A DNA stretch of 60,000 nucleotides from Schmidtea polychroa (taxonomy: Eukaryota): NCBI GenBank assembly GCA_044892525.1, contig CM097885.1, positions 28,646,001-28,706,000 on the forward strand, written 5' to 3'. Both the position numbers and the translations under genes were made by a program. Shown one piece after another: positions 5,460 to 40,886 of the stretch. Numbering within the stretch: position 1 is the first letter of the stretch; every line of letters starts with the position of its first letter. The notes under the pieces were generated by a model that had not been told where the DNA came from, made no database searches, and was given only the letters and a program-made list of their open reading frames with translations.

Positions 5460-6055
5460 CTAAATAAACAAATACTTATCGTGGAAAACTATCATAAGTA
5501 GTGTGGATAAAATGATTTTTAGAGCCTATTGTTTTACCGAACCATTGTTTGACTTCATACGACAAGGGAAAAATTGTTAAATATATGAATCTTTATGAGA
5601 TATCGCGTAAAATGAAGAGATATCTATGAAAATTCAACCTCACTCAAGCTATTATTTACTAGAAACTATTTTTTATTTTAATCAAAAAAATTAGAAAATT
5701 TTTAGGAAATTAGAGAGTGCAAATTATGAATTGTACACAATATTAAAAAGAATGAAAGTAAAATAATTTATGAAGCTGGCAGCGTACGACTAAATGTGAG
5801 TCTAGAAATAAATCTTTATACATTAACGAAACGAATCTCACAGAAACTTCTGCAAAAATACATGAACTCACAAGCGAATGGTATGAGGACTAGTGGTACC
5901 GGATGACATGTCAAGGATACATATCAAGAACAATAGGTGCAAACAGACAATTAGCACATCTAATCAAATCACATACCCTAACAGACAAACAATACATTTT
6001 TCTCATTAAGGCAAGAAATAACATGATAAGTCTCAATTATAGCGCATACAAATTA

Positions 6056-6312
6056 TTAGGATTCTCATCCTTTTTTAAATCACTAAATAATTCCATAAAT
6101 TTTATTTAATAAAAGATATCTCAAAAAACTTGTCTGATCTTATTTTTGTTATTTAAACAAATTTAAGATTTTCTTAAAATATTTCTTTAATAAAGATATT
6201 TCTTAAAATTGATAAATTTTCTTTCTTCTTTTTAAAATATTTTTCAATAAAAATATATTTAAAATTTTTACCAAATTTCTAATTAATCTTTAAGAATCTT
6301 TTAACTTCCTCA
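6056..6312 (-). repeat. Gypsy 3' LTR (~257 bp, TGAGGA...TCCTAA)
   Basis: Follows the polypurine tract AAGGAGGGGGA on the minus strand; homologous to 28241-28449, which abuts the PBS. Confidence 0.85.
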
Positions 6313-7979
6313 TATCCCCCTCCTTAAGAAATTTTTTAAGTTTTTCCACGTTTCTTTCAATCTTTTTACCATTCTCGTTTCTTAAGATATATCGTCTGTC
6401 ATGCACTTTCTCGATTACTTTATATGGTCCCTCATATCTGTCCTGGCTTTTGTTGCGTGTTTCTAATTTTACTAACACATCATCTCCTACGTCAAATTTC
6501 CTTCTTGTTTGTTCTTCTTGTTCTTCCTTTACTTGTTTTTCTTTTGACCCGTACCATTTCTCCCTGCTAATCTTTTTTTCCAAAAACTATCTCTGCCGGG
6601 CTTATTCCTGTCGTTTTTTGTTTGGTTGCATTTAATGTAAATTCGACTTCTGGTAGTATCTCTGCCCAATCCGTCATCCTTCTGAATCGTAAAGAAGCAT
6701 TTATCCGCTTTCGTATTGTCCTGAATTGCCATTCTATCTGTCTATTTGTTTGGTGATGGTATGGACTCGAAAAACATAACTTAATATCAAGTTTCTTTGT
6801 GAATTCTCTCAACATTCCTGATTCAAACGCCTTCCCACAATCAACTTTTATCTCCTTTGGGCACCCGAATCTTAAAATCCATTTTTCTAAAATCGTTTAT
6901 TTTATTGTTTCTTCGTCTTGTCTTGTTATAGCTGTCAGGACTTGATACTTACTATACTGGTCTATTATACCCAATATATACTTCTTACGTCCTTTTGTTT
7001 CTTGCATTGGTCCACATATATCCACGAATATAATTTCGAACATTTCGGTTGATTCTAATTTTTTTACTGGTTTCTTCGTTGTATTTGTTATAGCCTTGGT
7101 TTTTTGACAAGTCTCACAACTTTGAATAGTTTCCTGAATCTGACTCCACAGGTTTTTCCCAATATATCTATCTTGCATATAATCAGCTATCTTCTCGACT
7201 CCAGCATGACACAATAGACTATGTATTTCCTTTATGGTTTCTTGTATCTCGATTTCATGTATCATCGTTCTCTTTCGTAATTCTTCTTCCAAATTTATTT
7301 GTTGATTGGTGCTTCTACCTTCTTCTCTGATCGAGTCTAGTAATCTAGTTTTTATCTTTCCTTTCTTAGCTTCTTCGTGAGCCATTTGACATTGAACACA
7401 CGTTTCACATTTAGTTCTGGACACCATGTCTGCATTTTGGTGATTAACACCCTTTCTATATTCAACGATTATATCCAAACTGCTCAAATAATTTATTCAG
7501 GTTTGGAATTGTGAAGTAAAACTGGCATCAGTATCTAAAATGAACTCCTTTCTCAGATCCGGAAAGCATAGAATCGGTGCCGTTGTGAATGCTAACTTCA
7601 TTCCTTCAATACATTATTCGTTCCTTCAGTCCATTCCAGTTTTATTTTAATCGGACCGCTACATAATTGTTCTAACATCCTTGATTTCTTTGCATACTCA
7701 CTGATGAATCTTCTATAATAATTACAAATGCCTAGAAAGCTTCGAAGTTTCTTTACGCAACTTGGCTTCCCAAAATTTTGTATAGCCTGAATCTTAGAAG
7801 GATCGGTTTTTACTCCTTCTTAACTGATTATTTGTACCTAAGAATCTGATTTTTTTCTTTATTATTTGACACTTTTCTGGGTTAATCTTTAGACCTGCTT
7901 CATCGATCGCTTTTAATACTTCACTGAGTATTGTATAATGTTTTTCTTTACTATTCGAATAAATCACAATGTCATCCAA
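6290..7979 (-). pseudogene. pol: Gypsy pol 3' half (RT from LDD, RNase H with 234 bp deletion, integrase)
   Basis: LDDIVIYS, KINPEKC, HHCC zinc region, FVDICGP, SPYHHQTN, GPY motif; stops and frameshifts. Confidence 0.9.
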
Positions 7980-8881
7980 AGTAGTGTGTATATATACCCA
8001 ACCCAAACAGCCCTCCCAACAAAAACATACCTCCATTACGCTTAAACCATTAGAAAAACAACATTAAACCTATGCTTTTATAGTATTTTAACCCCATATT
8101 TTAAACAACAACCACCCTTAATCTTTAAAGCCTCAAACTCAAAAGCTTCAAACTAAAAAGAGAATAGAAAAAAAAATGAAAAAGCATTATGAAAAAGTTA
8201 GAGGGCTATTTGGGATCAATCAAACTCCGGAGTTGATCTTTATCAGATTATTGATTTTAAATTATATAAATGAAAAAATAAATGAAAAATAGTAAAACTG
8301 CTCTGAGGGGACAGTGGTTTTTTTTTTTTTTTTTTCACTGTCCCCTCAACAGTTTTTTTGATCCGGATCATTTCAACCTCTTTCGTTTATCAAATCTCTT
8401 CTAATATACAAGCTGGCCAGACTCATACATCAGAATCAATCCGATAATAGCAGCACACCTTATTATTCGCTTCTCGCTCGAATACGATTTCATCGGCGTT
8501 TTAAGCGTGCTGCTCGAAAGTACAAATGAATTCGAAAGTGAATCCGAAAGAGGTCCGAAAACAACTGAGAAATAAATGTGCACATTAAAGAATCGATCCG
8601 GGGGTGTTCGAAAGACAGGTGGCGATAATTACCGGTTCGCCACCATCACCCGTTTCAATAATTTTTTTTTCATATTTATGTTTAAAAATAAAATAATTAA
8701 TAAAATAAATAAAATAAATAAAATAAAATAAAATAAAATAAAAATAAATAAAATAAAATATAAATCTAAGATACCCACACTATTATTTTCAAATTTTTAA
8801 AAAAAAAAAAAACTAACCACAGTTAGGATTTGAACCGCTATCCATTTGAACCACGGTGCCGGTCTAGCCCACTGCGCTATC
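7980..8881. repeat. Polinton left terminal inverted repeat (~900 bp)
   Basis: Starts AGTAGT; inner boundary defined by loss of homology with 21547-21910. Confidence 0.85.
8304..8348. other. 13 bp perfect hairpin with oligo-T loop in the TIR (copy at 23366-23412)
   Basis: TGAGGGGACAGTG-G(T)18-CACTGTCCCCTCA, extendable by AAAACTG/CAGTTTT. Confidence 0.85.
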
Positions 8882-8886
8882 GGGCT
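8813..8886 (-). ncRNA. tRNA-like Pol III unit at the inner edge of the left TIR
   Basis: A box TAGCGCAGTGG (8869-8879), B box GGTTCAAATCC (8826-8836), T14 terminator (8799-8812). Confidence 0.7.
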
Positions 8887-8985
8887 TTGGATTTTTGTTA
8901 TTTTTTATACTGTCACATTATGAAAATAAATATAAAAACATAAAAAATCAAAACAGGATATCCAATAAAAAATTTTTTTCTAAAA

Positions 8986-11900
8986 ATGAATTGTAATATT
9001 TGTAATAAAGTTTTTAAAAATAAAACTGGATTAATTTCTCACTTAAAATCGAAAGCTCATTTATTAAAAGAAAATAATCTTAATGACACAAATTCAAAAG
9101 TTTGTCCTAAATGTAAAGGAAGATTTCTACATTCTGGATATAATAAACATTTTGAAAATTGTATCGGGAAAAATAGAGAAATATTTACATGTTCTCACTG
9201 TAACTTTTCAACAAAAGTAAATTTCTATTATTTAGAACATATAAAAGAATGTAAAAATAAAAAACAAAATTCTGACGATGAGGAATGTCATTCAGAAGGA
9301 GAACCTGATCATGTTGAAAGAGAAAAATATAACTGGGATAATTTTAATCATATAGATGAATTTCAATTAAAAATTAATGGACCTGCAACTCCTGGAGAAT
9401 ATATAAATAAAAATAAAAAAAATATTAAAAATTCTTTCACTGAAGCTTTAAAAAATTATAAACCGACAAGGTATAATGTTATAAAATATAAGATTATAAT
9501 CAAAGCAAAATACTGGCGAGGAGCAGAAGAAAAGACAACACCTTTAGATGTTGAAATTGGAATACCCTTTAAATATTTATTTTCAACTAAAGGATTTGAT
9601 AAAACCATCAAAGAAATAATTCAAGCAGTAGAAGCAAAACAAGAAGAGGTTGAAAATGAATTAGGAGATTCAAACTTAGTATTCAACTCTTTCCAAACTT
9701 TAGTGATTGATTATTGGAGAGGATTACCACCTAATCCTAAATCTTATTTTCCTACACCCTTTAAATCTAAAAATGTTATAAACATACAGAATAATGATAA
9801 CAAATGTTTCGTCTGGTCAATACTTGCACATTTACACCCTCAAGAATCAAACCCTCAAAGAGTTTCAAAATACAAACAATATGAAAATGAATTAATATTT
9901 CCCAAAGGATTCAAACATCCAATGAAACTAGAAGACATTCCAAAATTTGAAAGTTTAAATAATCTTAAAATTAATATTTATGAACGTGTTAAAGGGAAAC
10001 ATGTTAATAGCAGAGAAATTATTCTAATTTATTTTTCAGATTATGAAGTTAGAGATAATGAACCCCAGGATAACACTAGGGAGATATATCTTTTAATCTT
10101 GGAACAACAAAATAATCAACATTATGTTTTAATAAAAAACTTTCAAGCTTTTACATCACCAGAGAATCCAACTAGTGGAGGAGGAACATGTAAAAGATGT
10201 CTTCATTATTCAACAACTAAAAACTCTATGATTAAACATACAAGATTTTGTGAAAAAGATGATCCAGCTTTAATTAAAATGCCTAATAATCCCAAGATGT
10301 ATTTTAAAAACTTTTCAAATTTACTACAAACAGTAGGAGTGCTTTATGGGGACTTTGAATCTATAAATCGTAAACAAGATTTGGTTAAACAATATTTAAA
10401 AATAATAGAAAAAAATAAACTCATGGATTCCTGGAACTCCTCAGGAGAGAAGATGAAACCAGAGAGGATGAAAGCCTTTCTAAGAAAAAGGAATAAACCT
10501 AATAGTGTTAAAAAAACTAAACAATTACCATCTGCTTATAAATTATTATTTAAAAGTAATTATCCTGAACTCATAGAATCTAGAGAATATACATTTCGAG
10601 GAATTTCAGAAACAGAAGTCTTGAATCATTTTACTAAAAGTATAAATGATCTTGAACATGAAATATTTAAAGTATTAAAAACAAACTATCCTCAAAATAT
10701 TTCTAATCAACAACAACAAGAATATGAAAACACTTCCAACTGTTGGATGTGTAAACAACCATTTGAAGAGTCTCCGAATATAAAAGTCCTCGATCATGAT
10801 CATTTAAAAAAGGAAAATAATTATCGAGGAGCAGCTCATAAAAATTGTAATCTTAATTGTCATACTCCTAAATTTGTACCTGTTATATTTCATAATCTTT
10901 TTGGTTATGACATACATCTATTTATTAAACATTTAGCAGCAAATGCTAAAAACTCTTTCAAAGTTATAGGACTTACAAAGGAAAAATATAAATCAGTTGA
11001 ATATGGAAAATTAAAATTTATAGACTCGTTAAACTTTCTTCAAATGTCTCTAGATGGAATAGCTAAAACAATGAAACCAGAAGATTTTAAAATCACTCGA
11101 GAATTCTTGGAAAAAAATAATATTCCTCTAGAAGAATATCCTACATGTTTAGCAAAAGGAATATATCCTTATGACTATGTTGACTCGTTTGAAAGATATA
11201 ATGAAACAAGTCTTCCTAGCCAAGAAGATTTCTATTCACAACTTCAAAAAAATCATATTACAAATCAAGAATATTCTCGAGCAAATAAAATGTGGGAATT
11301 ATTCAAGTGTAAAACTTTAGGAGAATATACAAGTATGTATTTATCCTTGGATGTTTATATTCTAGCAGATTGCTTTGAAGAATTTACAAAATCTTTTGTT
11401 CTTAAACCTTACAATTATATAACAGCACCCTCTTTAGCTTGGGATACTTTATTATATACCATTTGGACTTCAAATATAGAAGAAGCTGATAAAATTATAG
11501 ATCTTTTAACTAACCTCGATATGTTTAATCTAATTAAAACAAACATTAGAGGAGGAGTCTCTTCAGTAATGGGGAATAGAGAAATAAAAGCTAGAAATGC
11601 AATAACTACTAGCAGAATGCTTTCAAAGACCTCTGATCCATATATAAAAATTAACAATGAGGAATTAAAAGAAATATTAGAAACAATGAAAAATCCTATA
11701 TTTATACTTTATAGAGATGCAACAGCTTTATATTCAGGAATTATGATTCAATATTTACCAATGGGTGATTTCATTGAAATAGAATCATCAAAAGACCTTA
11801 TAAAAGAAATACTTTCAACATCGAAAGATTCTCCAATAGGTTACTTTGTAGAATGTGACTTATTATATCCAGATGATATAAAATCAGGAACAAGATATTT

Positions 11901-12876
11901 TCCTTTAGCTCCTGTAAGAAGAAAGATTGATATCAACGAACTTTCTGAATGGCAAATCTCACAAGATAAACCCCCAACAATGAAACTTCTTTGTGATCAA
12001 ACAGATCGAAGGTTTTATCTTTGTCACTATAGACTCCTCCAATTTTATCTTTCACGAGGTATGATATTAAAAAAAGTTCATAGTGTCATAAGATTTAAAC
12101 AGAGGCCATTCATGAAAGCTTTTATCGAGGAGAACATTAGATGTCGAAACATTGCAAAAAGAGAAGGTAACCTTTTTAAAGATAATAATTATAAACTTTT
12201 AAACAATTCAGTCTTTGGGAAGACAATGGAAAATGTAGACAAATATACTCATATTGAACTCCTAACAAATACTACCAAAGACATTAAGCGTTATAATCGT
12301 ATGCTAGGAAAGCCTACATTTAAAAACGCACAAGTATTTTCTGAAAGTCTTACTGCAATAGAACTAAAGAATTTTGAGAAAACATACAACAAACCAATAT
12401 TTATAGGGTTTTCAATTTTAGAACTTTCAAAATTACAAATGTATGAAACATATTATAACATCTTACAACCTATATATGGTTCTAATATATCAATGCATGC
12501 AATGGATACAGATTCAATGTTTTTAACAATAAGAACTCATGATTTACAAAGAGATATAGCTGAAAATCCTATACTTTCAAATTTAATAAATTCAACTGGA
12601 GAATTATTTTCATTTAAAGATGAAAAACCTTTTACTCCTATCGAAAATGGAATATTTATTCGTGCTAAACAATATTCATACGAAACATTTAGAAACCCTG
12701 AATTTATAACTAGATCATTTATATTTAAAACTCCAGAAACAGAAGAAACCATTACACATAGATATCCTATATTTCCTAAAGAAGAAAAACCTGTAAAGGA
12801 TAACAGATGTAAAGGAATACAGAGAGTGGTGGCAAAGAATCTTTCTCATCAAGATTATATATATAATTTTTATTAG
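8986..12876 (+). CDS. pPolB: Protein-primed DNA polymerase B polyprotein (Zn fingers, putative TP and vOTU regions, HNH/EndoVII insert), C-terminally truncated
   Basis: YGDFES, FHNLFGYD, KGIYPYDY, IRGGVS, KLLNNSVFGK, DTDS, KDE, KGI motifs; CWMC..DHDH..YRGAAHKNCN; usual terminal DDKR block is missing. Confidence 0.95.
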   Translation: MNCNICNKVFKNKTGLISHLKSKAHLLKENNLNDTNSKVCPKCKGRFLHSGYNKHFENCIGKNREIFTCSHCNFSTKVNFYYLEHIKECKNKKQNSDDEECHSEGEPDHVEREKYNWDNFNHIDEFQLKINGPATPGEYINKNKKNIKNSFTEALKNYKPTRYNVIKYKIIIKAKYWRGAEEKTTPLDVEIGIPFKYLFSTKGFDKTIKEIIQAVEAKQEEVENELGDSNLVFNSFQTLVIDYWRGLPPNPKSYFPTPFKSKNVINIQNNDNKCFVWSILAHLHPQESNPQRVSKYKQYENELIFPKGFKHPMKLEDIPKFESLNNLKINIYERVKGKHVNSREIILIYFSDYEVRDNEPQDNTREIYLLILEQQNNQHYVLIKNFQAFTSPENPTSGGGTCKRCLHYSTTKNSMIKHTRFCEKDDPALIKMPNNPKMYFKNFSNLLQTVGVLYGDFESINRKQDLVKQYLKIIEKNKLMDSWNSSGEKMKPERMKAFLRKRNKPNSVKKTKQLPSAYKLLFKSNYPELIESREYTFRGISETEVLNHFTKSINDLEHEIFKVLKTNYPQNISNQQQQEYENTSNCWMCKQPFEESPNIKVLDHDHLKKENNYRGAAHKNCNLNCHTPKFVPVIFHNLFGYDIHLFIKHLAANAKNSFKVIGLTKEKYKSVEYGKLKFIDSLNFLQMSLDGIAKTMKPEDFKITREFLEKNNIPLEEYPTCLAKGIYPYDYVDSFERYNETSLPSQEDFYSQLQKNHITNQEYSRANKMWELFKCKTLGEYTSMYLSLDVYILADCFEEFTKSFVLKPYNYITAPSLAWDTLLYTIWTSNIEEADKIIDLLTNLDMFNLIKTNIRGGVSSVMGNREIKARNAITTSRMLSKTSDPYIKINNEELKEILETMKNPIFILYRDATALYSGIMIQYLPMGDFIEIESSKDLIKEILSTSKDSPIGYFVECDLLYPDDIKSGTRYFPLAPVRRKIDINELSEWQISQDKPPTMKLLCDQTDRRFYLCHYRLLQFYLSRGMILKKVHSVIRFKQRPFMKAFIEENIRCRNIAKREGNLFKDNNYKLLNNSVFGKTMENVDKYTHIELLTNTTKDIKRYNRMLGKPTFKNAQVFSESLTAIELKNFEKTYNKPIFIGFSILELSKLQMYETYYNILQPIYGSNISMHAMDTDSMFLTIRTHDLQRDIAENPILSNLINSTGELFSFKDEKPFTPIENGIFIRAKQYSYETFRNPEFITRSFIFKTPETEETITHRYPIFPKEEKPVKDNRCKGIQRVVAKNLSHQDYIYNFY

Positions 12877-13063: not shown

Positions 13064-13379
13064 TTATTAATAATTTAAAATGAATCTTCAAACCTGTTTC
13101 AAATGTAAATACATTGAAATCTCTTCTCCATTAAAATCAATCAATTCTCCTTCTTGATTAAGAATTTTAAAATTAATATCCATTATATATTTTCTACATA
13201 AAGGTAAATAATTTGGAGGATTCATTCTTTCAACTATTTTATATCCCATAGGAACTGTGTTTGAGGGAAAGGAATATAAAACATTTGTTTGTTTACCATT
13301 ATTATAAGAACCAGTTATACAATCACAATGAATATTTATTGTGTTTGTATGTATTATTTTTATAATATTTTCTGATGTA

Positions 13380-14845
13380 CAGGGTTTTAAGTTGTATTTT
13401 GACAAGCATAATATATTTTTTGACAATATTAACCAGATAATAAACAATATTAAATCTATTATTGACAATATATACTAAATTAATAACAATAAAAGCTTTA
13501 TTAATGACATTATAAATATATTTTTAGACATTCTATGCATGGCTCGACAAATAAGTCAATTTCCTGCTTCCATAGCAAATAATACAGAAATAGTAGTCGA
13601 AAGTGATAACACTGCCGAACCAGCTATCCGTAACACTTTTCGAGTACAACGAAGAAATAGTACAACTTCAAATGCTGATAGAGATCGTGTTATTACAGCA
13701 TACGATGACGGGACTTCAATAGTTGATATTTCTCGAATTTTATCAATAAAAAGAACTACAATTTATGGTATTTTGAAGAAGTACCATAACACTGGAGTGG
13801 TGGAAGCTGATAAGAGAGGCGGCGATCATCCACAAAAATTGACAGAGGATCAAAAAATCAAGTAAAAGAGTGGGTTGATAATAACTGCCAATTATCGTTG
13901 AAAGTTTTAGCGGAAAAGGTATTTACAGAGTTTCAAATTAGAATATCCACAACTTATGTATATAATTTATTATCTCGTTTTCATTATTCAATGAAAAGAC
14001 TTCATTTAATTCCAGAGAGAAGAAATTCAACAGAAGTAATTGAAACAAGAAAAGAATATGCACTTAAATTCTCTTCTATACTAAGTATATATTCAGAACA
14101 AGAATTAATATTTATTGATGAGGTGGGATTCAACGTTTCTATGAGAACAACAAGAGGAAGATCACAAATAGGCACTCCTGCAACATTAAATGTACCGACC
14201 ATACGATCAAGAAATATATCTATAGCATGTGCAATGAACAAAAATGGGTTATTGTTTTATAAATCTTTTAATCGGGCCCTCAATAAAGAGAAGTTTATCG
14301 AATATATAACAGAGCTAAAAGAAGTTTTAATTGATAAAGAGATTCACAGATGCGTATTCATAATGGATAATGTTAAGTTCCATAAAAGTCCTGAAGTGCT
14401 TAGCGCTATAAATAATGAAAATACAACTGTAAAATTTCTTCCGCCGTACTCCCCTTTTCTCAATCCTATTGAGAACATGTTCAGCAAATGGAAGGAAATC
14501 ACCAAAAGAACCAACCCCAGAAATGAAGATGATCTTATGCGAGCAATTGAAAATGGAAGTACCCTAATATCTTCACAAGACTGTAGTAATTATGTGCGAA
14601 ATATGTGGTCATATATACCAAGATGTATTGAGGGAGAAATTATTCTTAATTAAATGTCACTTAATTTTTTTGTCATTACATTTTTTGTAATATATTACAT
14701 TAATATATGTATTATTGTCATTAATATTATTTAAATTGGCATTTATTTTATTAATATTGTCATTAATGTATTTAACATTGTCAAAGATTATATTAAAATA
14801 TTCAAAAAATATGTTATGTTTGTCATAATACGACTTGAAACCCTG
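13380..14845 (+). mobile_element. Tc1/IS630-superfamily transposon (DD34E)
   Basis: TA duplications at 13378-79 and 14846-47; ~45 bp imperfect TIRs starting CAGGGTTT; TGACAAT subterminal repeats. Confidence 0.93.
13539..14653 (+). CDS. DD34E transposase split by a one-base frameshift in an A6 run (~13855)
   Basis: HTH N-terminal ORF 13539-13865; FIDEVG, MDNVKFH, LPPYSPFLNPIE in ORF 13898-14653. Confidence 0.88.
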
Positions 14846-15313
14846 TAACTTCAGGTGTGGTATAATGGTTTTGTGTAAATCCTAAAATTGTTCTAAAGAA
14901 ACTATTATTTTGAAAATGAATTCCTATATTCTCTAAAGTCATTATACATTTTGAAGTTGGTAAATCCATTTTAATTTTAATGACTCCATTTGTTTTTTTA
15001 GAAAGTATATTATTTAAATCTTTTATCTCATAAGCCCCAGGATCGATTGTTATTATAATCTTATCTGTAGCTTTTGGGCTTATATAATAAAATATGTTAT
15101 TATCTTTAGTTATATTAAAAATAGTATTATAAGCACAAAACCATAATAGACCTAATTCATAATTTAAATCTTGATCTAATTTAATTGAATCTTGAAAGTT
15201 TATAGTAAAGTCTGATTCTTTTGAATTTATAGATAAAGTTCTTGAATATTTATCTGACATTATGTTTACCATTTTTTTTAAATTATCTTCTGGAGGGTTG
15301 CGAAGCTCCATTT

Positions 15314-15775
15314 TTATAGTAGAGATTTTAAATCATTATAAATTTCTTGGATTAAGGAAGTGAAACCTTCTCCTTTGGATTTATTCAATCTATACAAAAC
15401 ATATAAGCTTAAAATACCACATATTTTAGTATTATTAGGTTGAACTTGTAAAGAATTAAAAGTGTAGTCCGAGAGATAGTCTTCAACTTCTTTAGTGGGT
15501 TTAATCCCAAAAGAATCAAAGTATATAGATTTATTATATATACAAACCCAATGAGATCCTTTCTCATTTGAATTTTGATAATTTATAATAATATTCAGGG
15601 GACTTCGTTTCTTTTGAGTGTCTTCTTTCAGAATATCTTTCAGACTTGATAATTCATCATTCATTAATATTTTTATTTTTAAATTTAAATAATTTGCATA
15701 ATCTTTTAAATCAAAATTTGTTTTTGCATTTATTCCAAATGTTTTTAAAAAATCTAATATTGAAGGATTAGTCAT
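15314..15775 (-). CDS. Adenain-like cysteine maturation protease
   Basis: GSHWVC, YFDSFG, QVQ..KICG catalytic motifs. Confidence 0.9.
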   Translation of the reverse strand: MTNPSILDFLKTFGINAKTNFDLKDYANYLNLKIKILMNDELSSLKDILKEDTQKKRSPLNIIINYQNSNEKGSHWVCIYNKSIYFDSFGIKPTKEVEDYLSDYTFNSLQVQPNNTKICGILSLYVLYRLNKSKGEGFTSLIQEIYNDLKSLL

Positions 15776-15797
15776 TTTATATTTTATAACTTTGTAT

Positions 15798-17279: not shown

Positions 17280-17294
17280 TTTTAAATAAATAAA

Positions 17295-18087
17295 ATGGAT
17301 ATTTGGAAACCAATTTTAAATAGACATAAATCTAAATTTAATAATAAAGTATTTCCTGATAATTTTAGATTATTAATTGTTGGTTCTTCTGGATGTGGAA
17401 AGAATGTACTTGTTTTGAAAATGTTGCTTGAAGATGGTTTTTTAGATTATAATAATTTAATCTTTTACTCTACAACCATAAATCAACCAGAATTACAACT
17501 TTTGAAATGTGGATTTGAAAATAAATTAACTAAAAAAGCAATAATTGATATTTTTAAAAACCAACATAGATGTCCTGAAGACGTTTTTCAACCTTGTGAT
17601 ATGGTTGATTGGTATAAGGAAAAGATTTTAGAATCAGATATTAGTAATAAAAATGATTATATTTGTGAAGATCAGGGGCAGGAGGCAATTCAAGTTTTAT
17701 TCTCTAATAAACCTGAAGATGTTTTACATTGTGATTTACTTCCTAAAGATAAAAAGAATCTAGTTATATTTGATGATGTTGTCAACATGAAAAATCAAGA
17801 GATTCAAAAGAGTTACTTTACACGAGGTCGACATAATAATTGTAATGTTATTTATATCTCAAACTTATTATGCTTTAGATAAAAACTCTATAAGAAATAA
17901 TTCTAATTGTTTTATATTTTTTAAATTAGATCGCCGTGATAAGAATATGATTTATAATGATTTATTTTCAAATGTTGAACCTGATAAGAATATGTTTGAT
18001 ATGTTTGTTGATAATCATTGGAAAGAAAAATATAATTATATTTATTTGGATAGAGAAGAAGCTGAAATATGGAAAAGTTTGTTTTAG
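17295..18087 (+). pseudogene. A32/FtsK-like packaging ATPase, frameshifted near 17860
   Basis: GSSGCGKN (Walker A), LVIFDD, FTRGRH, and ISQ..SIRNNS continuing in the second frame. Confidence 0.88.
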
Positions 18088-19463
18088 AAATCTGTTTTCT
18101 GTAACTCATTATTATAAAATCTACCTAATATTTTTTCATTATTTAAATCAATGATGCTATATGTTATTGGGGTTGTATAATGTATTTTATTTATAATAAA
18201 AATTTCATTTGTCCATTTTGCTGTGAATCCTTTTTCAAATTTATTTTTATATTTAAATATTCTTACTCGGTCACCAATTTTAAACTTTGGTTTTTCAATA
18301 ACATCATTTTCAATATTTACCACTTTAATGGTTTCAGGATTCATGGAAGCATTTAAAGGTGTTGATTTTATAGAACTATGTACATCATTATTATATTCAT
18401 TTACAATCTTTTGTAACAATTCATTGTTCCATTTTTGTTTTCCAATAGCAGTAAAATATTTCCACACTTTATTTTTTAATGTTCTATTTAATCTTTCAAC
18501 TACGACTGCTTTTCCTTCGTTTTCTGTTGAATATAATTTAATATCATTTTCATTTAAAAACTTTGTAAAAACTTTGTTATAAAATTCTGTTCCTTTATCA
18601 CACCATAAATATTTTGGAATTCTTTGATGTTCTTCAAATATATTTTCAAATGCTTCTGTAATGGAATATCTTGTTTTATTTTCTAAACACCTTGCAAAGG
18701 CAAATCTTGTATATAAATCTATTACAGTTAAAATTATTTTATATTTTTCAGGGTCTGATGATTTGGTTGGCATAAAGACTTAATCTGCAGACCATGTTTG
18801 ATCTTTTTCATGTACTTGAACTTTTAAATATTTTTTATTTTTTCTAAATTCATGGTGTAATTCGTTGGCATATTTTATTTGTGATTCTGTTGGGGTTAAT
18901 AAGCTAGTCTTGGATATATTCTCGAGGGATCTTTCAGCATCTGCTTGTTCAATAATCTTTTTATTAGCATAATCTTTTGCCATCCTTGGTAAACTAGCAC
19001 CTATGAAAATCTTACCTTTCATTGCTAATTTAACTAGAGCTCTTTGAATCTTTTCTTGGGTTGATGGATTTTGGATACTATTTAAATCATGTATTAAATT
19101 CACATCTGCAACATGTCTATCTCTAAGATTTGTTGAATTGTATGCAATGTCATGTTTTAAAGCTGCTTGATCAATTCTATTTATTGGTTCTTCTCTTTGT
19201 TTGGGATTATTATTTTCATCTAATCTAATATCTAATCTTGTTCCTGGTCCGGTATAGTTGTGTTTAAATAAATGTCTTTCACCTGGATATTTTTCTGTAG
19301 TAAAAGGTTTTAATATTGAAGATGTTGTTTTTGAAGATTGTAGGTCGCCTCCGGCTCGTGGAATCATGTCGCCTCCTATATGTTTTTTAGTTTTTAGATG
19401 ACTTGCTTTATGATGTCTTGTAACTTGACAATTACAAGTTTCACATCTCCAATAGAGAGACAT
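18084..19463 (-). pseudogene. Zn finger-PLA2X-rve integrase fusion with one in-frame stop
   Basis: ORFs 18780-19463 and 18084-18773 are in frame (WSAD*VFMP); YTGPGT..DQAALKHDIAY; IDLYTR, CDKGTEF, VERLNRTLK. Confidence 0.88.
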
Positions 19464-19480
19464 TTTAAAATGTTAAAATA

Positions 19481-20767
19481 TTAAGAATCTCCCCTAACAT
19501 TTTCGATTATTGAAATCTTTCCACCATATAATTTCATTTCTATTTTCTTTTCTTCTAATATTAATGTATATACTTTAGCTTTAAAATTAGAATCCTTTGT
19601 TACATGAAGTGTAATATCAACATTATTTATGGCTAGGCGATCATCTTGGTCTGAAACATTTATACAAAATATAGAATATAAATTTTTGAAATCTTCTAAA
19701 CTTAATTGCGGTTCAACTTTGAAATCATAACATGTTTCAATATAATTTAGATATGGGAATATGTTTTCATTATTTTCAATATTAAATTCCATTCTATTTA
19801 TTGGATAATAAGAACTATTTAATTGAATTTGGATTGTTTTTAAATTATCAACTCCAATCTTTTGAATAAACAAGTTGTTATTTTTTTGGAAAGATGAATC
19901 TACTTCTTTGAATCCAATCAAGATATATCTTGGTCGGTATGCTAAATTTGCTACCTTTATAGAATATGTTGAACCCTCTGTCATACTAAATTCACTACAG
20001 ATTCTATTTAAATAATTTACATTTATAGACTTGTTGGAATTTAATCTTTCAAGGAGTTTGATTTCAGAATGTGGATTTAATGTCCATTCAGGTATATGCA
20101 ATTCAAGTGTTGATATTTTTAATTTAGCTGTTGTATCCTTATCTCCATAGAACAATCTTTTATCACCTTCTACTCTATTACAAACTAATTCTATAAAAAC
20201 ATTATGAAGTATACGATTATAGTTTTGAAGGAATCCAAACAAGTGTTTTAATTCAAAATAACCTTCAAATTTTTTAGATTTATAAAGTTCAGCTCTTTTA
20301 TAGTAACCATAATTTATATCTAAACCATCTTTATCTAAATCTCCTTTATTAACATCAGGAATCCAGCCTGTTAATTCACCATATTCATTTTTATAATCAC
20401 AACCAGTCAAAATAAAATTTAACATTGTAGAATATACTCCCGGATGCAAAACAGTTTCAATTTCTGATGATCCTAGTTTTAATCTCATGTTGGAGAATAA
20501 ATTTGGAAAGAAATTATTTTCTAGGGTTATATCTTTGTTTGCTTCAATTTCTAATTCGATTTTATAATATAATTTGGCATTACAAATATCTATAGGGTTT
20601 GATGTTTGAAGAGATTGAAAAACTATATCACCCCTACGATTTAAGTTTGCAATAGATCCTGAAGTTGGGGAGATTTTAAGTACATCGTTTTTCTTGATTT
20701 CATGAGTAAATTCTTTATTATAATCAAGATTTAATTTATTTTTTTCTTGAATTTTTATATTATTCAT
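19481..20767 (-). CDS. Major capsid protein (double jelly-roll, hexon-like)
   Basis: 428 aa; LENNFFPNLFS..IE, LFGFL, PRYILIGF, FKNLYSIFCINVS blocks; gene context. Confidence 0.85.
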   Translation of the reverse strand: MNNIKIQEKNKLNLDYNKEFTHEIKKNDVLKISPTSGSIANLNRRGDIVFQSLQTSNPIDICNAKLYYKIELEIEANKDITLENNFFPNLFSNMRLKLGSSEIETVLHPGVYSTMLNFILTGCDYKNEYGELTGWIPDVNKGDLDKDGLDINYGYYKRAELYKSKKFEGYFELKHLFGFLQNYNRILHNVFIELVCNRVEGDKRLFYGDKDTTAKLKISTLELHIPEWTLNPHSEIKLLERLNSNKSINVNYLNRICSEFSMTEGSTYSIKVANLAYRPRYILIGFKEVDSSFQKNNNLFIQKIGVDNLKTIQIQLNSSYYPINRMEFNIENNENIFPYLNYIETCYDFKVEPQLSLEDFKNLYSIFCINVSDQDDRLAINNVDITLHVTKDSNFKAKVYTLILEEKKIEMKLYGGKISIIENVRGDS

Positions 20768-20822
20768 TTTTATATATTAAAATTTACACACACAAAATAG
20801 GATTAATTAAATATATTATGTA

Positions 20823-21058: not shown

Positions 21059-21131
21059 TTGAGTATAGCTTAGTGGTAATAGCACTCGACTGCATTGCCA
21101 ATACTAATGGGTTCAAATCCCATTTCGGTCA
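21059..21131 (+). ncRNA. tRNA-Cys(GCA)-derived Pol III unit
   Basis: GTATAGCTTAGTGGTAATAGCACTCGACTGCA resembles the tRNA-Cys 5' half; perfect T arm ATGGG-TTCAAAT-CCCAT; T8 terminator; acceptor and anticodon stems do not pair. Confidence 0.72.
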
Positions 21132-21294
21132 TTTTTTTTCAAATCTTTTTAACGAAATATTGATCAGCATACTCGATTTAGTACTTGTACAAATTTTTAA
21201 GGTGATTGGTCAACGGCAACTCTTGGAAATTTAAGATCAAAAACGTTTTAACTACCAAAAATTAATATATCCAATAAAAAAAATATTTATAAAA

Positions 21295-21564
21295 ATGGAT
21301 GAGTTAAAAGAAAGAATGAGAAATGAATTGAATGAAGTTAAACATAAGAGAATGAAAAGAAGAGAAGAAGAACCATTAGAATACATCAAAGAGTTGATGG
21401 TAGATAATGAAAAGTATCGACATTTTTATATGAAGGCTGTAGATGTTGCTGATATAAGATTGAAGAAAATGAAACAATTACAGGAAAGAGTTAAAGAACT
21501 TGAATCGATTATTTATAGTCTAAAAAATGACAAAAATTCAAACCTTGATGGCTCAGTGGGCTAG
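21295..21564 (+). CDS. Small coiled-coil hypothetical Polinton protein
   Basis: 89 aa ORF sharing the upstream motif ATATCCAATAAAAAA..TAAAAATG with pPolB. Confidence 0.6.
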   Translation: MDELKERMRNELNEVKHKRMKRREEEPLEYIKELMVDNEKYRHFYMKAVDVADIRLKKMKQLQERVKELESIIYSLKNDKNSNLDGSVG

Positions 21565-21615
21565 ACCGGCACCGTGGTTCAAATGGATAGCGGTTCAAAT
21601 CCTAACTGTGGTTAG
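21541..21615 (+). ncRNA. tRNA-like Pol III unit at the inner edge of the original right TIR
   Basis: A box TGGCTCAGTGG (21549-59), B box GGTTCAAATCC (21592-602), T9 terminator. Confidence 0.7.
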
Positions 21616-21910
21616 TTTTTTTTTCAACATAAAATAATATTAAAAATTTGAAAATAATAGTGTGGGTATCTTAGATTTATATTTTATTTTATTTATTTTT
21701 ATTTTATTTTATTTTATTTTATTTATTTTATTTATTTTATTTATTTTATTTATTTTATTTATTTTATTTATTTTATTTATTTTTTAAACATAAATATGAA
21801 AAAAAAAATATTGAAACGGGTGATGGTGGCGAACCGGTAATTATCGCCACCTGTCTTTCGAACACCCCCGGATCGATCCCGGTAATGTGCACATTTATTT
21901 CTCAGTTGTT
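21547..21910. repeat. Surviving inner part of the original right TIR
   Basis: Reverse complement of 8560-8881 with small indels. Confidence 0.9.
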
Positions 21911-22723
21911 ATCATTATTCTGTATGTTTATAACATTTTTAGATTTAGAGGGTGTAGGAATATAAGATTTAGGATTAGGTGGTAATCCTCTCCAATAATC
22001 AATCACTAAAGTTTGGAAAGAGTTGAATACTAAGTTTGAATCTCCTAATTCATTTTCAACCTCTTCTTGTTTTGCTTCTACTGCTTGAATTATTTCTTTG
22101 ATGGTTTTATCAAATCCTTTAGTTGAAAATAAATATTTAAAGGGTATTCCAATTTCAACATCTAAAGGTGTTGTCTTTTCTTCTGCTCCTCGCCAGTATT
22201 TTGCTTTGATTATAATCTTATATTTTATAACATTATACCTTGTCGGTTTATAATTTTTTAAAGCTTCAGTGAAAGAATTTTTAATATTTTTTTTATTTTT
22301 ATTTATATATTCTCCAGGAGTTGCAGGTCCATTAATTTTTAATTGAAATTCATCTATATGATTAAAATTATCCCAGTTATATTTTTCTCTTTCAACATGA
22401 TCAGGTTCTCCTTCTGAATGACATTCCTCATCGTCAGAATTTTGTTTTTTATTTTTACATTCTTTTATATGTTCTAAATAATAGAAATTTACTTTTGTTG
22501 AAAAGTTACAGTGAGAACATGTAAATATTTCTCTATTTTTCCCGATACAATTTTCAAAATGTTTATTATATCCAGAATGTAGAAATCTTCCTTTACATTT
22601 AGGACAAACTTTTGAATTTGTGTCATTAAGATTATTTTCTTTTAATAAATGAGCTTTCGATTTTAAGTGAGAAATTAATCCAGTTTTATTTTTAAAAACT
22701 TTATTACAAATATTACAATTCAT
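21902..22723 (-). CDS. Duplicated N-terminal 273 aa of pPolB
   Basis: Identical to the pPolB N-terminus except two substitutions near the junction and the last residue. Confidence 0.85.
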   Translation of the reverse strand: MNCNICNKVFKNKTGLISHLKSKAHLLKENNLNDTNSKVCPKCKGRFLHSGYNKHFENCIGKNREIFTCSHCNFSTKVNFYYLEHIKECKNKKQNSDDEECHSEGEPDHVEREKYNWDNFNHIDEFQLKINGPATPGEYINKNKKNIKNSFTEALKNYKPTRYNVIKYKIIIKAKYWRGAEEKTTPLDVEIGIPFKYLFSTKGFDKTIKEIIQAVEAKQEEVENELGDSNLVFNSFQTLVIDYWRGLPPNPKSYIPTPSKSKNVINIQNNDNN

Positions 22724-22822
22724 TTTTAGAAAAAAATTTTTTATTGGATATCCTGTTTTGATTTTTTATGTTTTTATATTTATTTTCATAATGTGACAGT
22801 ATAAAAAATAACAAAAATCCAA

Positions 22823-22896
22823 AGCCCGATAGCGCAGTGGGCTAGACCGGCACCGTGGTTCAAATGGATAGCGGTTCAAATCCTAACTGTGGTTAG
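22823..22896 (+). ncRNA. Duplicate of the left-TIR tRNA-like Pol III unit
   Basis: A box 22830-22840, B box 22873-22883, T-run from 22897. Confidence 0.7.
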
Positions 22897-23736
22897 TTTT
22901 TTTTTTTTTTAAAAATTTGAAAATAATAGTGTGGGTATCTTAGATTTATATTTTATTTTATTTATTTTTATTTTATTTTATTTTATTTTATTTTATTTAT
23001 TTTATTTATTTTATTAATTATTTTATTTTTAAACATAAATATGAAAAAAAAATTATTGAAACGGGTGATGGTGGCGAACCGGTAATTATCGCCACCTGTC
23101 TTTCGAACACCCCCGGATCGATTCTTTAATGTGCACATTTATTTCTCAGTTGTTTTCGGACCTCTTTCGGATTCACTTTCGAATTCATTTGTACTTTCGA
23201 GCAGCACGCTTAAAACGCCGATGAAATCGTATTCGAGCGAGAAGCGAATAATAAGGTGTGCTGCTATTATCGGATTGATTCTGATGTATGAGTCTGGCCA
23301 GCTTGTATATTAGAAGAGATTTGATAAACGAAAGAGGTTGAAATGATCCGGATCAAAAAAACTGTTGAGGGGACAGTGAAAAAAAAAAAAAAAAAAAACC
23401 ACTGTCCCCTCAGAGCAGTTTTACTATTTTTCATTTATTTTTTCATTTATATAATTTAAAATCAATAATCTGATAAAGATCAACTCCGGAGTTTGATTGA
23501 TCCCAAATAGCCCTCTAACTTTTTCATAATGCTTTTTCATTTTTTTTTCTATTCTCTTTTTAGTTTGAAGCTTTTGAGTTTGAGGCTTTAAAGATTAAGG
23601 GTGGTTGTTGTTTAAAATATGGGGTTAAAATACTATAAAAGCATAGGTTTAATGTTGTTTTTCTAATGGTTTAAGCGTAATGGAGGTATGTTTTTGTTGG
23701 GAGGGCTGTTTGGGTTGGGTATATATACACACTACT

Positions 23737-25659
23737 TTGGATGACATTGTGATTTATTCGAATAGTAAAGAAAAACATTATACAATACTCAGTGAAGTAT
23801 TAAAAGCGATCGATGAAGCAGGTCTAAAGATTAACCCAGAAAAGTGTCAAATAATAAAGAAAAAAATCAGATTCTTAGGTACAAATAATCAGTTAAGAAG
23901 GAGTAAAAACCGATCCTTCTAAGATTCAGGCTATACAAAATTTTGGGAAGCCAAGTTGCGTAAAGAAACTTCGAAGCTTTCTAGGCATTTGTAATTATTA
24001 TAGAAGATTCATCAGTGAGTATGCAAAGAAATCAAGGATGTTAGAACAATTATGTAGCGGTCCGATTAAAATAAAACTGGAATGGACTGAAGGAACGAAT
24101 AATGTATTGAAGGAATGAAGTTAGCATTCACAACGGCACCGATTCTATGCTTTCCGGATCTGAGAAAGGAGTTCATTTTAGATACTGATGCCAGTTTTGA
24201 TACCATTGGGGCAGTGCTTTCGCAAAGAGATAAAGATGAAAAGGAGAAAGTAATTGCGTATGGATCACACTCGATGACGAGCCATGAAAAAGGATATTGC
24301 ATTACAAGGAAGGAACTATTGGCGGTATACTATTTTTGTATTCATTTTAAGCACTATCTCTACGGAAGAAGATTCACGCTAAGGACAGACCACAAGGCGA
24401 TCACGTTTATGATGACAACCAAGAAGCTAATTACTTCACAATTCCAAACCTGAATAAATTATTTGAGCAGTTTGGATATAATCGTTGAATATAGAAAGGG
24501 TGTTAATCACCAAAATGCAGACATGGTGTCCAGAACTAAATGTGAAACGTGTGTTCAATGTCAAATGGCTCACGAAGAAGCTAAGAAAGGAAAGATAAAA
24601 ACTAGATTACTAGACTCGATCAGAGAAGAAGGTAGAAGCACCAATCAACAAATAAATTTGGAAGAAGAATTACGAAAGAGAACGATGATACATGAAATCG
24701 AGATACAAGAAACCATAAAGGAAATACATAGTCTATTGTGTCATGCTGGAGTCGAGAAGATAGCTGATTATATGCAAGATAGATATATTGGGAAAAACCT
24801 GTGGAGTCAGATTCAGGAAACTATTCAAAGTTGTGAGACTTGTCAAAAAACCAAGGCTATAACAAATACAACGAAGAAACCAGTAAAAAAATTAGAATCA
24901 ACCGAAATGTTCGAAATTATATTCGTGGATATATGTGGACCAATGCAAGAAACAAAAGGACGTAAGAAGTATATATTGGGTATAATAGACCAGTATAGTA
25001 AGTATCAAGTCCTGACAGCTATAACAAGACAAGACGAAGAAACAATAAAATAAACGATTTTAGAAAAATGGATTTTAAGATTCGGGTGCCCAAAGGAGAT
25101 AAAAGTTGATTGTGGGAAGGCGTTTGAATCAGGAATGTTGAGAGAATTCACAAAGAAACTTGATATTAAGTTATGTTTTTCGAGTCCATACCATCACCAA
25201 ACAAATAGACAGATAGAATGGCAATTCAGGACAATACGAAAGCGGATAAATGCTTCTTTACGATTCAGAAGGATGACGGATTGGGCAGAGATACTACCAG
25301 AAGTCGAATTTACATTAAATGCAACCAAACAAAAAACGACAGGAATAAGCCCGGCAGAGATAGTTTTTGGAAAAAAGATTAGCAGGGAGAAATGGTACGG
25401 GTCAAAAGAAAAACAAGTAAAGGAAGAACAAGAAGAACAAACAAGAAGGAAATTTGACGTAGGAGATGATGTGTTAGTAAAATTAGAAACACGCAACAAA
25501 AGCCAGGACAGATATGAGGGACCATATAAAGTAATCGAGAAAGTGCATGACAGACGATATATCTTAAGAAACGAGAATGGTAAAAAGATTGAAAGAAACG
25601 TGGAAAAACTTAAAAAATTTCTTAAGGAGGGGGATATGAGGAAGTTAAAAGATTCTTAA
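23737..25659 (+). pseudogene. pol: Gypsy pol 3' half (RT C-terminal part, RNase H, integrase), duplicated copy
   Basis: LDDIVIYS; FILDTDAS..GAVLSQ..ELLAV..TDHKA; integrase and GPY; same stops as the left copy. Confidence 0.92.
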
Positions 25660-25893
25660 AGATTAATTAGAAATTTGGTAAAAATTTTAAATATATTTTT
25701 ATTGAAAAATATTTTAAAAAGAAGAAAGAAAATTTATCAATTTTAAGAAATATCTTTATTAAAGAAATATTTTAAGAAAATCTTAAATTTGTTTAAATAA
25801 CAAAAATAAGATCAGACAAGTTTTTTGAGATATCTTTTATTAAATAAAATTTATGGAATTATTTAGTGATTTAAAAAAGGATGAGAATCCTAA
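25637..25893 (+). repeat. Gypsy 3' LTR copy, preceded by PPT (25624-25634)
   Basis: AAGGAGGGGGA-TA-TGAGGA...TCCTAA. Confidence 0.85.
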
Positions 25894-26730
25894 TAATTTG
25901 TATGCGCTATAATTGAGACTTATCATGTTATTTCTTGCCTTAATGAGAAAAATGTATTGTTTGTCTGTTAGGGTATGTGATTTGATTAGATGTGCTAATT
26001 GTCTGTTTGCACCTATTGTTCTTGATATGTATCCTTGACATGTCATCCGGTACCACTAGTCCTCATACCATTCGCTTGTGAGTTCATGTATTTTTGCAGA
26101 AGTTTCTGTGAGGTTCGTTTCGTTAATGTATATAGTGTAATCTTTTGTCTTTAAGAGTAGTATGTATTTGTTATTTTCTAGTGTAAGTGTGATTTTGATG
26201 CCAAATCTTTCATTTATTCTTTTGATGGCAGATCTAAATTTGCCAAATATTGTTGCTGGGCCGCTTGTGTCGCCTTTAATGTCTGCATTTATCCATCTAA
26301 ATGTGTGGTTTATATCTATTGGTGTGTTTAAATCTGATTTTAGCTAATGCTATCATTTGTTTAATTATGAATTCCCTCATTCTTATGTCTCGTGAGTGTA
26401 GTATTTTAATGAGGTGTGTGATGCCTTGTATCATGTATTCATCAATGCTTAGCACTATGACCAGCATATACCACACTATACCCGTTGAGCAATCAATGTT
26501 GGTACTGTATCGAATGGGTGAGTACTTGCGAAAAGCGAGCGTACCTTTGTACAATATAATATGCAAGCACTCAAGCGGGTTCGCGGACTGCCGTTAGAAG
26601 GCCTTTGTCCGACTTTAATTTAGGTCCCTTAGTTCTATAATCTAACGACTGGAAAACCAGTGACCTTCACTAAAAACCTTTTTATTCATTACGCCATACT
26701 GCGAGTTAACCATTACGCTGAGGAAGTACC
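25894..26730 (-). mobile_element. Remnant of an R2/NeSL-like non-LTR retrotransposon flanking the Gypsy LTR
   Basis: QGITHLIKILHSRD and QG..FLIKARNNMISLN resemble post-RT regions of RLE-type LINEs; partial copy at 5817-6055. Confidence 0.45.

Positions 26731-40833: not shown

Positions 40834-40886
<53 letters not shown>

What the first reader, a model, noticed from the sequence alone, without database searches (positions are those of the whole stretch)
5817..26730. Inverted duplication rebuilt the Polinton right end from its left end plus flank
Both Polinton ends are flanked by the same Gypsy sequence in inverted orientation (ATCCAA|AGTAGT...ACTACT|TTGGAT) instead of a direct 6 bp TSD. The original right TIR breaks at 21906 and joins pPolB position 9803 through AACAA microhomology. 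The copy then runs through the left TIR, Gypsy pol, LTR and LINE-like flank and rejoins the Gypsy protease at ~26730. The RT N-terminal half is lost. Two substitutions cluster by the junction. This fits template switching (MMBIR/FoSTeS) and leaves an element with ~1.8 kb TIRs. The arms are far more alike than the two Gypsy LTRs, so the event is recent.
Basis: partly seen in the sequence, partly recalled or inferred. Interest (0 to 1): 0.72.

Follow-up and report, generated by a model that had tools for sequence, protein, structure and literature searches.

The report
Polinton end replaced by mirrored copy
A broken virus-like transposon (Polinton) carries a mirror copy of its left end and about 2 kb of neighbouring DNA where its right end should be, most likely the scar of a one-off DNA replication or repair error of a known type, with no sign of function.

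Summary
The inverted duplication is in the sequence: 5817-9803 mirrors 26132-21906 with 3 substitutions and 4 indels. ATCCAA|AGTAGT…ACTACT|TTGGAT and the 5-bp AACAA microhomology are confirmed. The new right TIR matches the left TIR (0 substitutions), not the residual right TIR (15), so it is a copy.

Corrections: shared sequence ends at 26132, not 26730. The right arm also keeps 598 bp of flank and 234 bp of RNase H that the left arm lacks, so there are four junctions. The template was more complete than today's left arm: likely a homologue or sister, so arm identity need not date the event.

A contig from a public run bridges junction 5817 with 0 differences. No listed contig bridges 21906 or 26730 (tables truncated), so a haplotype-switch artefact stays open.

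Best reading: replication template switching (MMBIR/FoSTeS type), about 60%. No junction sits at an element end, so integrase action is unlikely. The element is broken in cis (integrase stop, Tc1 insertion), and the junction-side allele is absent from 4 of 4 runs, so there is no sign of spread.

This is a known class of rearrangement. The scan noted a similar TIR-plus-flank mirror in a fish Tc1 (e1-9862240). Interest is low.

The parts
5817..9803 (+). Left arm of the inverted duplication (flank repeat, Gypsy 3' LTR, Gypsy pol 3' half, Polinton left TIR, pPolB 5' part)
5817..5817 (.). Outer-left junction: unrelated flank (decayed sequence) joined to the flank repeat; bridged by an X10 contig 5458-5866 with 0 differences
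6054..6313 (-). Gypsy 3' LTR, left copy (outer end approximate, read by eye from the purine-rich tract)
6314..7979 (-). Gypsy pol 3' half (RT C-half, integrase), left copy; lacks 234 bp of RNase H at 7517/7518 (2-bp microhomology)
7980..8911 (+). Polinton left TIR (about 932 bp), starts AGTAGT
8986..12876 (+). pPolB, open frame (PF03175, E 3e-15; N-terminal C2H2 finger)
13378..14847 (+). Tc1/IS630-type DNA transposon inserted in the Polinton (HTH + DDE_3; about 145-bp TIRs, 75% identical), between two minus-strand ORFs
15314..15835 (-). Probable protease ORF (by eye and position only; no Pfam match above cut-off)
17286..17882 (+). Packaging ATPase (Pox_A32, E 2e-5)
18084..19472 (-). PLA2-like domain and rve integrase in one frame, interrupted by an in-frame stop at 18780-18782
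19481..20776 (-). Double-jelly-roll major capsid protein (PF21738, E 1e-26); 32 relatives, best 96% identical
21517..21910 (-). Residual inner part of the original right TIR (15 substitutions and 4 indels against the left TIR)
21906..21910 (.). Inner junction, 5-bp microhomology TTGTT/AACAA; 1.24 kb out of register with TIR homology (8564 vs 9803)
21902..22723 (-). Truncated pPolB copy, 273 codons, stop right after the junction; two missense changes at 21948 and 21961
22798..23736 (-). Copied left TIR, forming the new right end (ACTACT at 23731-23736)
23737..25896 (+). Copied Gypsy pol 3' half (RVT_1 153-202, RNase H, integrase) and 3' LTR
24199..24432 (+). 234-bp RNase H segment present only in the right arm
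25897..26132 (-). Flank repeat shared with the left arm
26133..26730 (-). Continuation of the flank repeat found only in the right arm; its reading frame runs across 26132 without a break
26729..26730 (.). Outer-right junction to the Gypsy protease; about 2-bp overlap inferred from contig ends
   Evidence: records 3, 4
26731..28238 (-). Gypsy 5' half: PBS-like site (by eye), gag with zinc knuckles, aspartic protease
28239..28449 (-). Gypsy 5' LTR, outer end replaced by (ATT)n; same orientation as the left 3' LTR

Best explanation
The right end of this Polinton is an inverted copy of its left end plus flank, most likely made by host replication or repair switching templates at short microhomologies (MMBIR/FoSTeS type). 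SHOWN: four junctions (5817, 7517/8, 21906, 26729/30); the new right TIR equals the left TIR; the outer about 584 bp of the old right TIR and the Gypsy RT N-half are absent; no junction is at an element terminus. INFERRED: a fork or break inside the right TIR re-primed at AACAA in pPolB (9803) on the opposite strand. It copied about 4.8 kb outward through left TIR, Gypsy pol, LTR and flank repeat, made two errors just after the switch, and returned to its own chromosome in the Gypsy protease (26730). The template still had the 234 bp and the 598 bp that the present left arm lacks, so it was likely the homologue (standing deletions on this haplotype) or an intact sister in a multi-switch event. 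SPECULATIVE: pairing of the two TIRs brought the two sites close. The product is likely a neutral scar in a transposon-dense region.
For: 5-bp microhomology, P about 0.011. 2-bp microhomology at the 234-bp deletion and about 2 bp at 26729/30, both weak on their own (P about 0.22). Two of three substitutions within 55 bp of the switch; at 21948 all laid contigs of 4 of 4 runs carry the left-arm base, so the right-arm base is the derived one. SNVs flanking junctions are described as features of replication-based mechanisms (PMC6902434, passages). New TIR has 0 substitutions vs left and 15 vs residual right TIR; contigs of X7 and X8 carry the residual-TIR segment that both the left TIR and its copy lack (loose ends at 22904). 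The copy returns to the right place on the chromosome, and both LTRs and the Gypsy halves keep one orientation. Junction 5817 exists in a public run. That contig ends at exactly 5836+30, as expected for k=31 if a second version differing at 5836 is present (inference).
Against: No contig shown or 20 bridges 21906 or 26730 (tables cut: 62,256 pieces not shown; contigs drop rare variants). The 5817 junction could be a standing allele without the duplication. Depth by subtraction: the window allele is about 127 in the shared flank vs 68-70 in the right-only flank in X8 (about 2:1), but 24 vs 20/20/40 in X9 and 0 vs 238/238/24 in X7; the tool says depth is no copy number, and 2:1 also fits a heterozygous deletion. 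The switch is 1.24 kb out of register, so TIR homology was not used directly; no hairpin enrichment at 6 of 6 breakpoint windows. At least two left-arm deletions need a separate explanation.
Confidence: 0.6

Rival explanations
1. Haplotype switch: the window joins the left part of one haplotype (with the two deletions) to the right part of another, in which the block [flank-LTR-pol-TIR-pPolB 5'] had been moved by two inversions. The switch may be an assembly error or a real crossover in the 12-kb middle.
For: Junction 21906 is also exactly one breakpoint of a simple inversion of 9804-21906 (geometry). The arm differences (234-bp indel, flank extent, 1 SNP, 3 repeat-length indels) look allelic. 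No bridging of 21906 or 26730 was seen.
Against: It needs a second haplotype with two inversions and three junctions. A plain foldback chimera does not explain a 12-kb spacer, non-identical arms and a correct return at 26730. The window holds no N.
Confidence: 0.2
2. Two steps: an old inversion of the whole block created junction 26730; a recent staggered-break (or two-switch) inversion of the Polinton interior then duplicated the arm, making the LEFT arm the new copy.
For: The left arm carries most derived changes (truncation at 5817, 234-bp deletion, 1-bp T-run change that shortens the integrase frame). Inversions flanked by inverted duplications are common (17/29 in PMC1885836, passages).
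Against: It needs reuse or loss of the old left breakpoint. The duplications in that paper did not exceed about 1.9 kb of aligned sequence, against 4 kb here. The derived substitution at 21948 is on the right arm.
Confidence: 0.15
3. Element-driven event: alternative transposition by the Polinton integrase, or end repair on the Polinton's own panhandle replication intermediate.
For: One junction lies inside the TIR. The product has two complete matching ends. Alternative transposition makes inverted duplications in maize (10.1101/2020.01.07.897926, passages). Free poxvirus genomes replace one terminus with an inverted copy of the other (10.1101/2022.09.16.508251, passages).
Against: No junction is at an element end; the nearest is 237 bp from an LTR edge, and the nearest to a Polinton end is 462 bp away. 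There is no new TSD. The copy runs 2.4-3.0 kb into chromosomal flank, which a free intermediate would not contain. The integrase is interrupted in cis.
Confidence: 0.05

Closest known systems
Replication-based complex rearrangements (MMBIR/FoSTeS; DUP-NML-INV/DUP) as at human PLP1 (PMC6902434; search passages read)
   Same: Inverted duplicated segment separated from its source by a copy-neutral region; junction microhomology; SNVs flanking the junction
   Different: Here kb scale, includes a deletion at the insertion site, lies in nested transposons; no parent to prove de novo origin
DUP-TRP/INV-DUP mediated by inverted repeats (PMC11293582; passages read)
   Same: Inverted repeat at the first switch, reversal of direction, second junction with 1-9 bp microhomology; some events interchromosomal
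   Different: There the first switch is in register within the repeat pair; here it is 1.24 kb out of register, and there is no triplication
Polinton-associated rearrangements at C. elegans eri-6/7 (PMC11414722; passages read)
   Same: Polinton TIRs at inversion and duplication breakpoints in an animal genome
   Different: Attributed there to ectopic recombination between several copies, with a host-gene effect; here one copy, microhomology junction, no host gene found
[quoted passage not shown]
   Same: One end replaced by the inverted other end, lengthening the terminal repeat
   Different: Free viral genomes there; here chromosomal, and the copy includes host-side flank
Staggered-break inversions in Drosophila (PMC1885836; passages read)
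   Same: Inverted duplications flanking a unique middle
   Different: The middle here is not inverted relative to the Gypsy LTR orientation
Alpha-class adintovirus / Polinton-Maverick (PMC8502044, PMC8097293; passages read)
   Same: PF03175 PolB, rve integrase, ATPase, DJR capsid, PLA2-like gene, (AGT)2//(ACT)2 ends
   Different: No 6-bp TSD; TIR 1.83 kb, above the 46-1,447 bp range given for intact vertebrate Mavericks; integrase interrupted; Tc1 insertion

Membership tests
Polinton/Maverick | Protein-primed PolB | tested here: met
   PF03175 E 3e-15, 1310-aa open frame
Polinton/Maverick | Retrovirus-like integrase | tested here: met
   rve E 5e-10; frame interrupted by a stop at 18780-18782
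Polinton/Maverick | Packaging ATPase and major capsid protein | tested here: met
   Pox_A32 E 2e-5; PF21738 E 1e-26
Polinton/Maverick | Protease and minor capsid protein | tested here: inconclusive
   Candidate ORFs 15314-15835, 14823-15332 and 13088-13474 have no Pfam match above cut-off; assigned by eye and position only
Polinton/Maverick | TIRs with (AGT)2//(ACT)2 end motifs | tested here: met
   motif as in PMC8097293
Intact (potentially active) Maverick | 6-bp direct target site duplication and all core ORFs intact | tested here: not met
   Flanks ATCCAA / TTGGAT are inverted, not direct; integrase stop and Tc1 insertion
Alpha adintovirus | pfam03175-type PolB with PLA2-like gene in the virion module | tested here: met
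   PF03175 and PF08398 E 4e-9; definition from PMC8502044
Alpha adintovirus | OTU-like domain at the PolB N-terminus; pX-like tail on PLA2X | not tested
   No profile-profile or structure search run; Pfam shows neither
MMBIR/FoSTeS product | Microhomology at join points | tested here: met
   5 bp at 21906 (P about 0.011), 2 bp at 7518, about 2 bp at 26729/30; 5817 cannot be scored because the ancestral continuation is unknown
MMBIR/FoSTeS product | New point mutations near the junction | tested here: met
   21948 and 21961; 21948 shown derived against contigs of 4 of 4 runs; 21961 not among the rows shown
MMBIR/FoSTeS product | All junctions in cis on one molecule and arisen in one event | not testable with these tools
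   Only short contigs of public runs were available; no genome held
DUP-TRP/INV-DUP | First switch in register within an inverted repeat pair, and a triplicated segment | tested here: not met
   Switch pairs TIR position 8564-equivalent with 9803; no third near-identical copy
Alternative transposition product | Junction at a transposon terminus | tested here: not met
   0 of 5 breakpoint positions at an element end
Staggered-break inversion | Middle segment inverted relative to the ancestral arrangement | tested here: inconclusive
   Middle is collinear with the left arm and both LTRs; fits only if an earlier inversion is assumed
LINE (flank repeat) | Homology to a non-LTR retrotransposon ORF | tested here: inconclusive
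   No Pfam match above cut-off and no convincing homologue; fragments are short

The most novel reading that the evidence does not exclude
A snapshot of how Polinton TIRs are lengthened and re-homogenised. End-copying inside the chromosome turned a 0.93-kb, 4%-diverged TIR pair into a 1.83-kb near-perfect pair that includes the pPolB promoter region and 5' third. This could be recognised in trans by active family members and found a long-TIR lineage. Alternatively, convergent transcription from the two copies could make the locus a silencing trigger for the Polinton and Gypsy families, like Mu killer or the Ac killers.
Probability: 0.07. Interest if true: 0.55.

Novelty: new member of a known kind. 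Interest (0 to 1): 0.25.

Why it matters
If real, it is a tidy, well-resolved example of a replication-based deletion plus inverted duplication at a Polinton end. It shows that a host repair error can produce long perfect TIRs without a TSD, a trap for TIR-based dating and annotation of Mavericks. It affects no host gene that I found, and the element is broken in cis. It would matter more only if the long-TIR form were found at other loci or produced small RNAs. A paper search for Polinton + microhomology + template switch returned 0 papers, and the listings showed no such case by title or abstract start. The library lacks most subscription papers.

Tried and rejected
1) The whole genome is not held, so copy number and other alleles in the assembly could not be checked.
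2) A templated insertion at 5802-5816 from the right-only flank looked suggestive (10/11 match), but 7-13% of null comparisons score as well: rejected. An X7 contig ends at 5801; cause unknown.
3) Hairpins at breakpoints: z from -1.0 to +1.5 in 6 windows against mononucleotide shuffles: none.
4) The junction 40-mer had 0 matches in metagenome contigs: uninformative.
5) No relatives of the capsid gene in viral contigs.
6) LINE identity of the flank: searches found nothing; one search gave one repetitive hit (E 7e-5, 22 residues), not accepted. A sub-threshold Pfam hit to Enterotoxin_a (E 0.013, 15.6 bits against a cut-off of 21) is treated as chance.
7) Contig depth as copy number was inconsistent across X7, X8 and X9; weak hint only.
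8) Missing cover of the left flank in X1 and X3 is not taken as absence.
10) My notebook gives the RNase H gap as 233 bp; the correct size is 234.
Full report
OBSERVATION. The window (no N, about 27% GC) holds a 4-kb inverted repeat: 5817-9803 against 26132-21906. A gapped alignment gives three substitutions (5836, 9748, 9761) and four indels: 1 bp in a T-run, 2 bp in poly-T, 5 bp in an AAAAT repeat, and 234 bp present only on the right (24199-24432; sizes sum to the 240-bp arm difference). The Polinton termini read ATCCAA|AGTAGT (7980) and ACTACT|TTGGAT (23736/7): the same Gypsy bases mirrored, not a direct TSD. Its outer limit is not: identity ends at 26132, and 26133-26730 has no match elsewhere in the window.

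ANATOMY. Pfam gives pPolB (PF03175), Pox_A32 ATPase, rve integrase, a PLA2-like domain and a double-jelly-roll capsid protein. This is a Polinton with the gene set that PMC8502044 describes for Alpha-class adintoviruses (passages); OTU and pX domains were not tested. It is broken in cis: an in-frame stop lies at 18780-18782 in the integrase frame, and a Tc1-type transposon sits at about 13378-14847. It is inserted in a Gypsy RT; the adjacent fragment begins at RVT_1 position 153. The Gypsy 5' half (gag, protease, 5' LTR) lies at 26731-28449 on the minus strand, in the same orientation as the left-arm pol and 3' LTR. The natural ancestor is therefore a minus-strand Gypsy with the Polinton in its RT. 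Absent from the window are the outer about 584 bp of the right TIR and the RT N-half (about 0.6-0.7 kb; my estimate). The flank repeat could not be confirmed as a LINE.

DIRECTION OF COPYING. Over the comparable 348 bp, the new right TIR has 0 substitutions against the left TIR, while the residual right TIR (21517-21910) has 15 substitutions and 4 indels. Contigs of runs X7 and X8 carry a segment found in the residual TIR but missing from both the left TIR and its copy (loose ends at 22904). So the right end is a copy of this element's left end. However, the copy is more complete than the present left arm. It has the 234-bp RNase H segment, and the flank's reading frame runs on across 26132 for another 598 bp, whereas the left arm breaks at 5817 into unrelated sequence. 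Two large deletions in the time of about one substitution per 4 kb are improbable as later independent events (inference). The template was more likely the homologous chromosome, or an intact sister during one multi-switch event.

JUNCTIONS. At 21906-21910, TTGTT is shared by the TIR continuation and pPolB 9799-9803; P(>=5 bp) is about 0.011 at local base composition. The switch is 1.24 kb out of register with TIR homology. Two of the three substitutions lie 42 and 55 bp from it (post-hoc P about 7e-4). At 21948 every laid contig in 4 of 4 runs has the left-arm base, so the right-arm base is derived. The 234-bp deletion has 2 bp of microhomology. At 26729/30 a Gypsy-family contig and a flank-family contig of X1 stop matching from opposite sides (records 3 and 4), which fixes that breakpoint with about 2 bp overlap. 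None of five breakpoint positions is at an element end, and none shows hairpin enrichment. A possible templated insert at 5802-5816 was not significant.

INDEPENDENT DATA. No genome is held. Ten public runs hold parts of the stretch; six were laid, all as short contigs. An X10 contig covers 5458-5866 with 0 differences, bridging junction 5817 with 359 and 50 bases on the two sides. It ends at 5836+30, as expected if a second version differing at 5836 is present in that run (inference). X10 could be the same strain as the assembly, and 5817 could be a standing allele, so this does not prove the inversion. By subtraction, the window allele has depth about 127 in the shared flank and 68-70 in the right-only flank in X8, but X9 (24 vs 20/20/40) and X7 (0 vs 238/238/24) do not repeat this, and the tool warns that depth is no copy number. 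No listed contig bridges 21906 or 26730. The tables were cut, and contigs drop rare variants in these very high-copy families, so this is neither support nor refutation. The absence of the 21948 allele in 4 of 4 runs does argue against an amplified long-TIR subfamily in those samples. The junction 40-mer was not found in metagenome contigs, nor capsid relatives in viral contigs.

MECHANISM. The best reading (0.6) is host template switching. Synthesis stalled or broke inside the right TIR, re-primed by microhomology in pPolB on the opposite strand, copied about 4.8 kb outward, made errors just after the switch, and returned at the protease. Junction microhomology and flanking SNVs are described as signatures of such events (PMC6902434, passages), and inverted repeats as triggers (PMC11293582, passages), though there the first switch is in register.

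RIVALS. A haplotype switch between differently rearranged alleles, artefactual or real (0.2); junction 21906 is geometrically also one end of a simple inversion of the interior. An old inversion followed by a staggered-break inversion (0.15; PMC1885836, passages). An integrase- or panhandle-driven event (0.05), disfavoured because the junctions avoid termini and the copy includes chromosomal flank.

COMPARISON AND NOVELTY. Polintons at inversion and duplication breakpoints are known from C. elegans eri-6/7 (PMC11414722, passages). Replacement of one terminus by an inverted copy of the other is known from poxviruses (10.1101/2022.09.16.508251, passages). Inverted transposon duplications acting as silencers are known from maize (10.1101/2020.01.07.897926, passages). 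Intact vertebrate Mavericks have TIRs of 46-1,447 bp and 6-bp TSDs (PMC8097293, passages), so 1.83 kb is above that range, but here it is a by-product. PMC13712841 was seen as abstract and outline only and is not relied on. No supplements were read; they may list comparable Polinton cases. A search for Polinton + microhomology + template switch gave 0 papers. The scan holds an unchecked note of a similar TIR-plus-flank mirror at a fish Tc1 (e1-9862240), which agrees but is not independent evidence; nothing was noted near this locus or for this capsid.

VERDICT. The duplication is present in the sequence and probably real in the genome. It is a new instance of a known rearrangement class at a defective Polinton in a transposon-dense region, with no host gene or function evident. 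Interest 0.25. The novel case (a long-TIR founder or silencing trigger) has probability about 0.07 and interest 0.55.

Noticed in passing
window 18084-19472 (-): The PLA2-like domain and the rve integrase lie in one reading frame, separated only by an in-frame stop; whether relatives have them as one protein was not checked.
   Followed up: partly
window 13378-14847: Tc1/IS630-type transposon inside the Polinton, HTH and DDE parts in two overlapping frames, TIRs only about 75% identical.
   Followed up: partly
window 3961-4332 (-) and surroundings 3000-5816: ORF that by eye resembles a packaging ATPase C-terminal part (recalled motif; no Pfam hit), suggesting a second, decayed Polinton-like element left of the junction.
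   Followed up: no
window 918-1271 (-): Zinc-knuckle gag-like fragment related to the Gypsy gag at 27202-27540 (30% identity, E 2e-7): another Gypsy remnant.
   Followed up: partly
window 1757-2428 and 46651-48557: Two related hAT-type transposase pieces (34% identity; Spin-doc zinc finger and hAT dimerisation domain).
   Followed up: partly
window 30342-30959 and 51732-52062: GIY-YIG-like ORF (sub-threshold Pfam hit) with a 69% identical second copy, probably Penelope-like remnants (inferred).
   Followed up: no
window 38120-38622, 40759-41209, 42000-42177, 33483-33807: Several short palindromic or inverted-repeat elements (MITE-like) sharing sequence with each other.
   Followed up: no
window 8298-8348 and its mirror near 23370-23420: Small hairpin inside the TIR (GAGGGGACAGTG - poly-T - CACTGTCCCCTC), terminator-like in shape.
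   Followed up: no
window 5090-5200: Very high-copy short repeat in all runs laid, unclassified.
   Followed up: no
window 49949-51139 (+): 396-aa ORF without Pfam match that by eye resembles a hAT-type transposase core.
   Followed up: no
window 26154 and 26156: All laid contigs of 4 of 4 runs differ from the window at two sites about 20 bp beyond the end of the shared arm; private changes or a contig hole.
   Followed up: no
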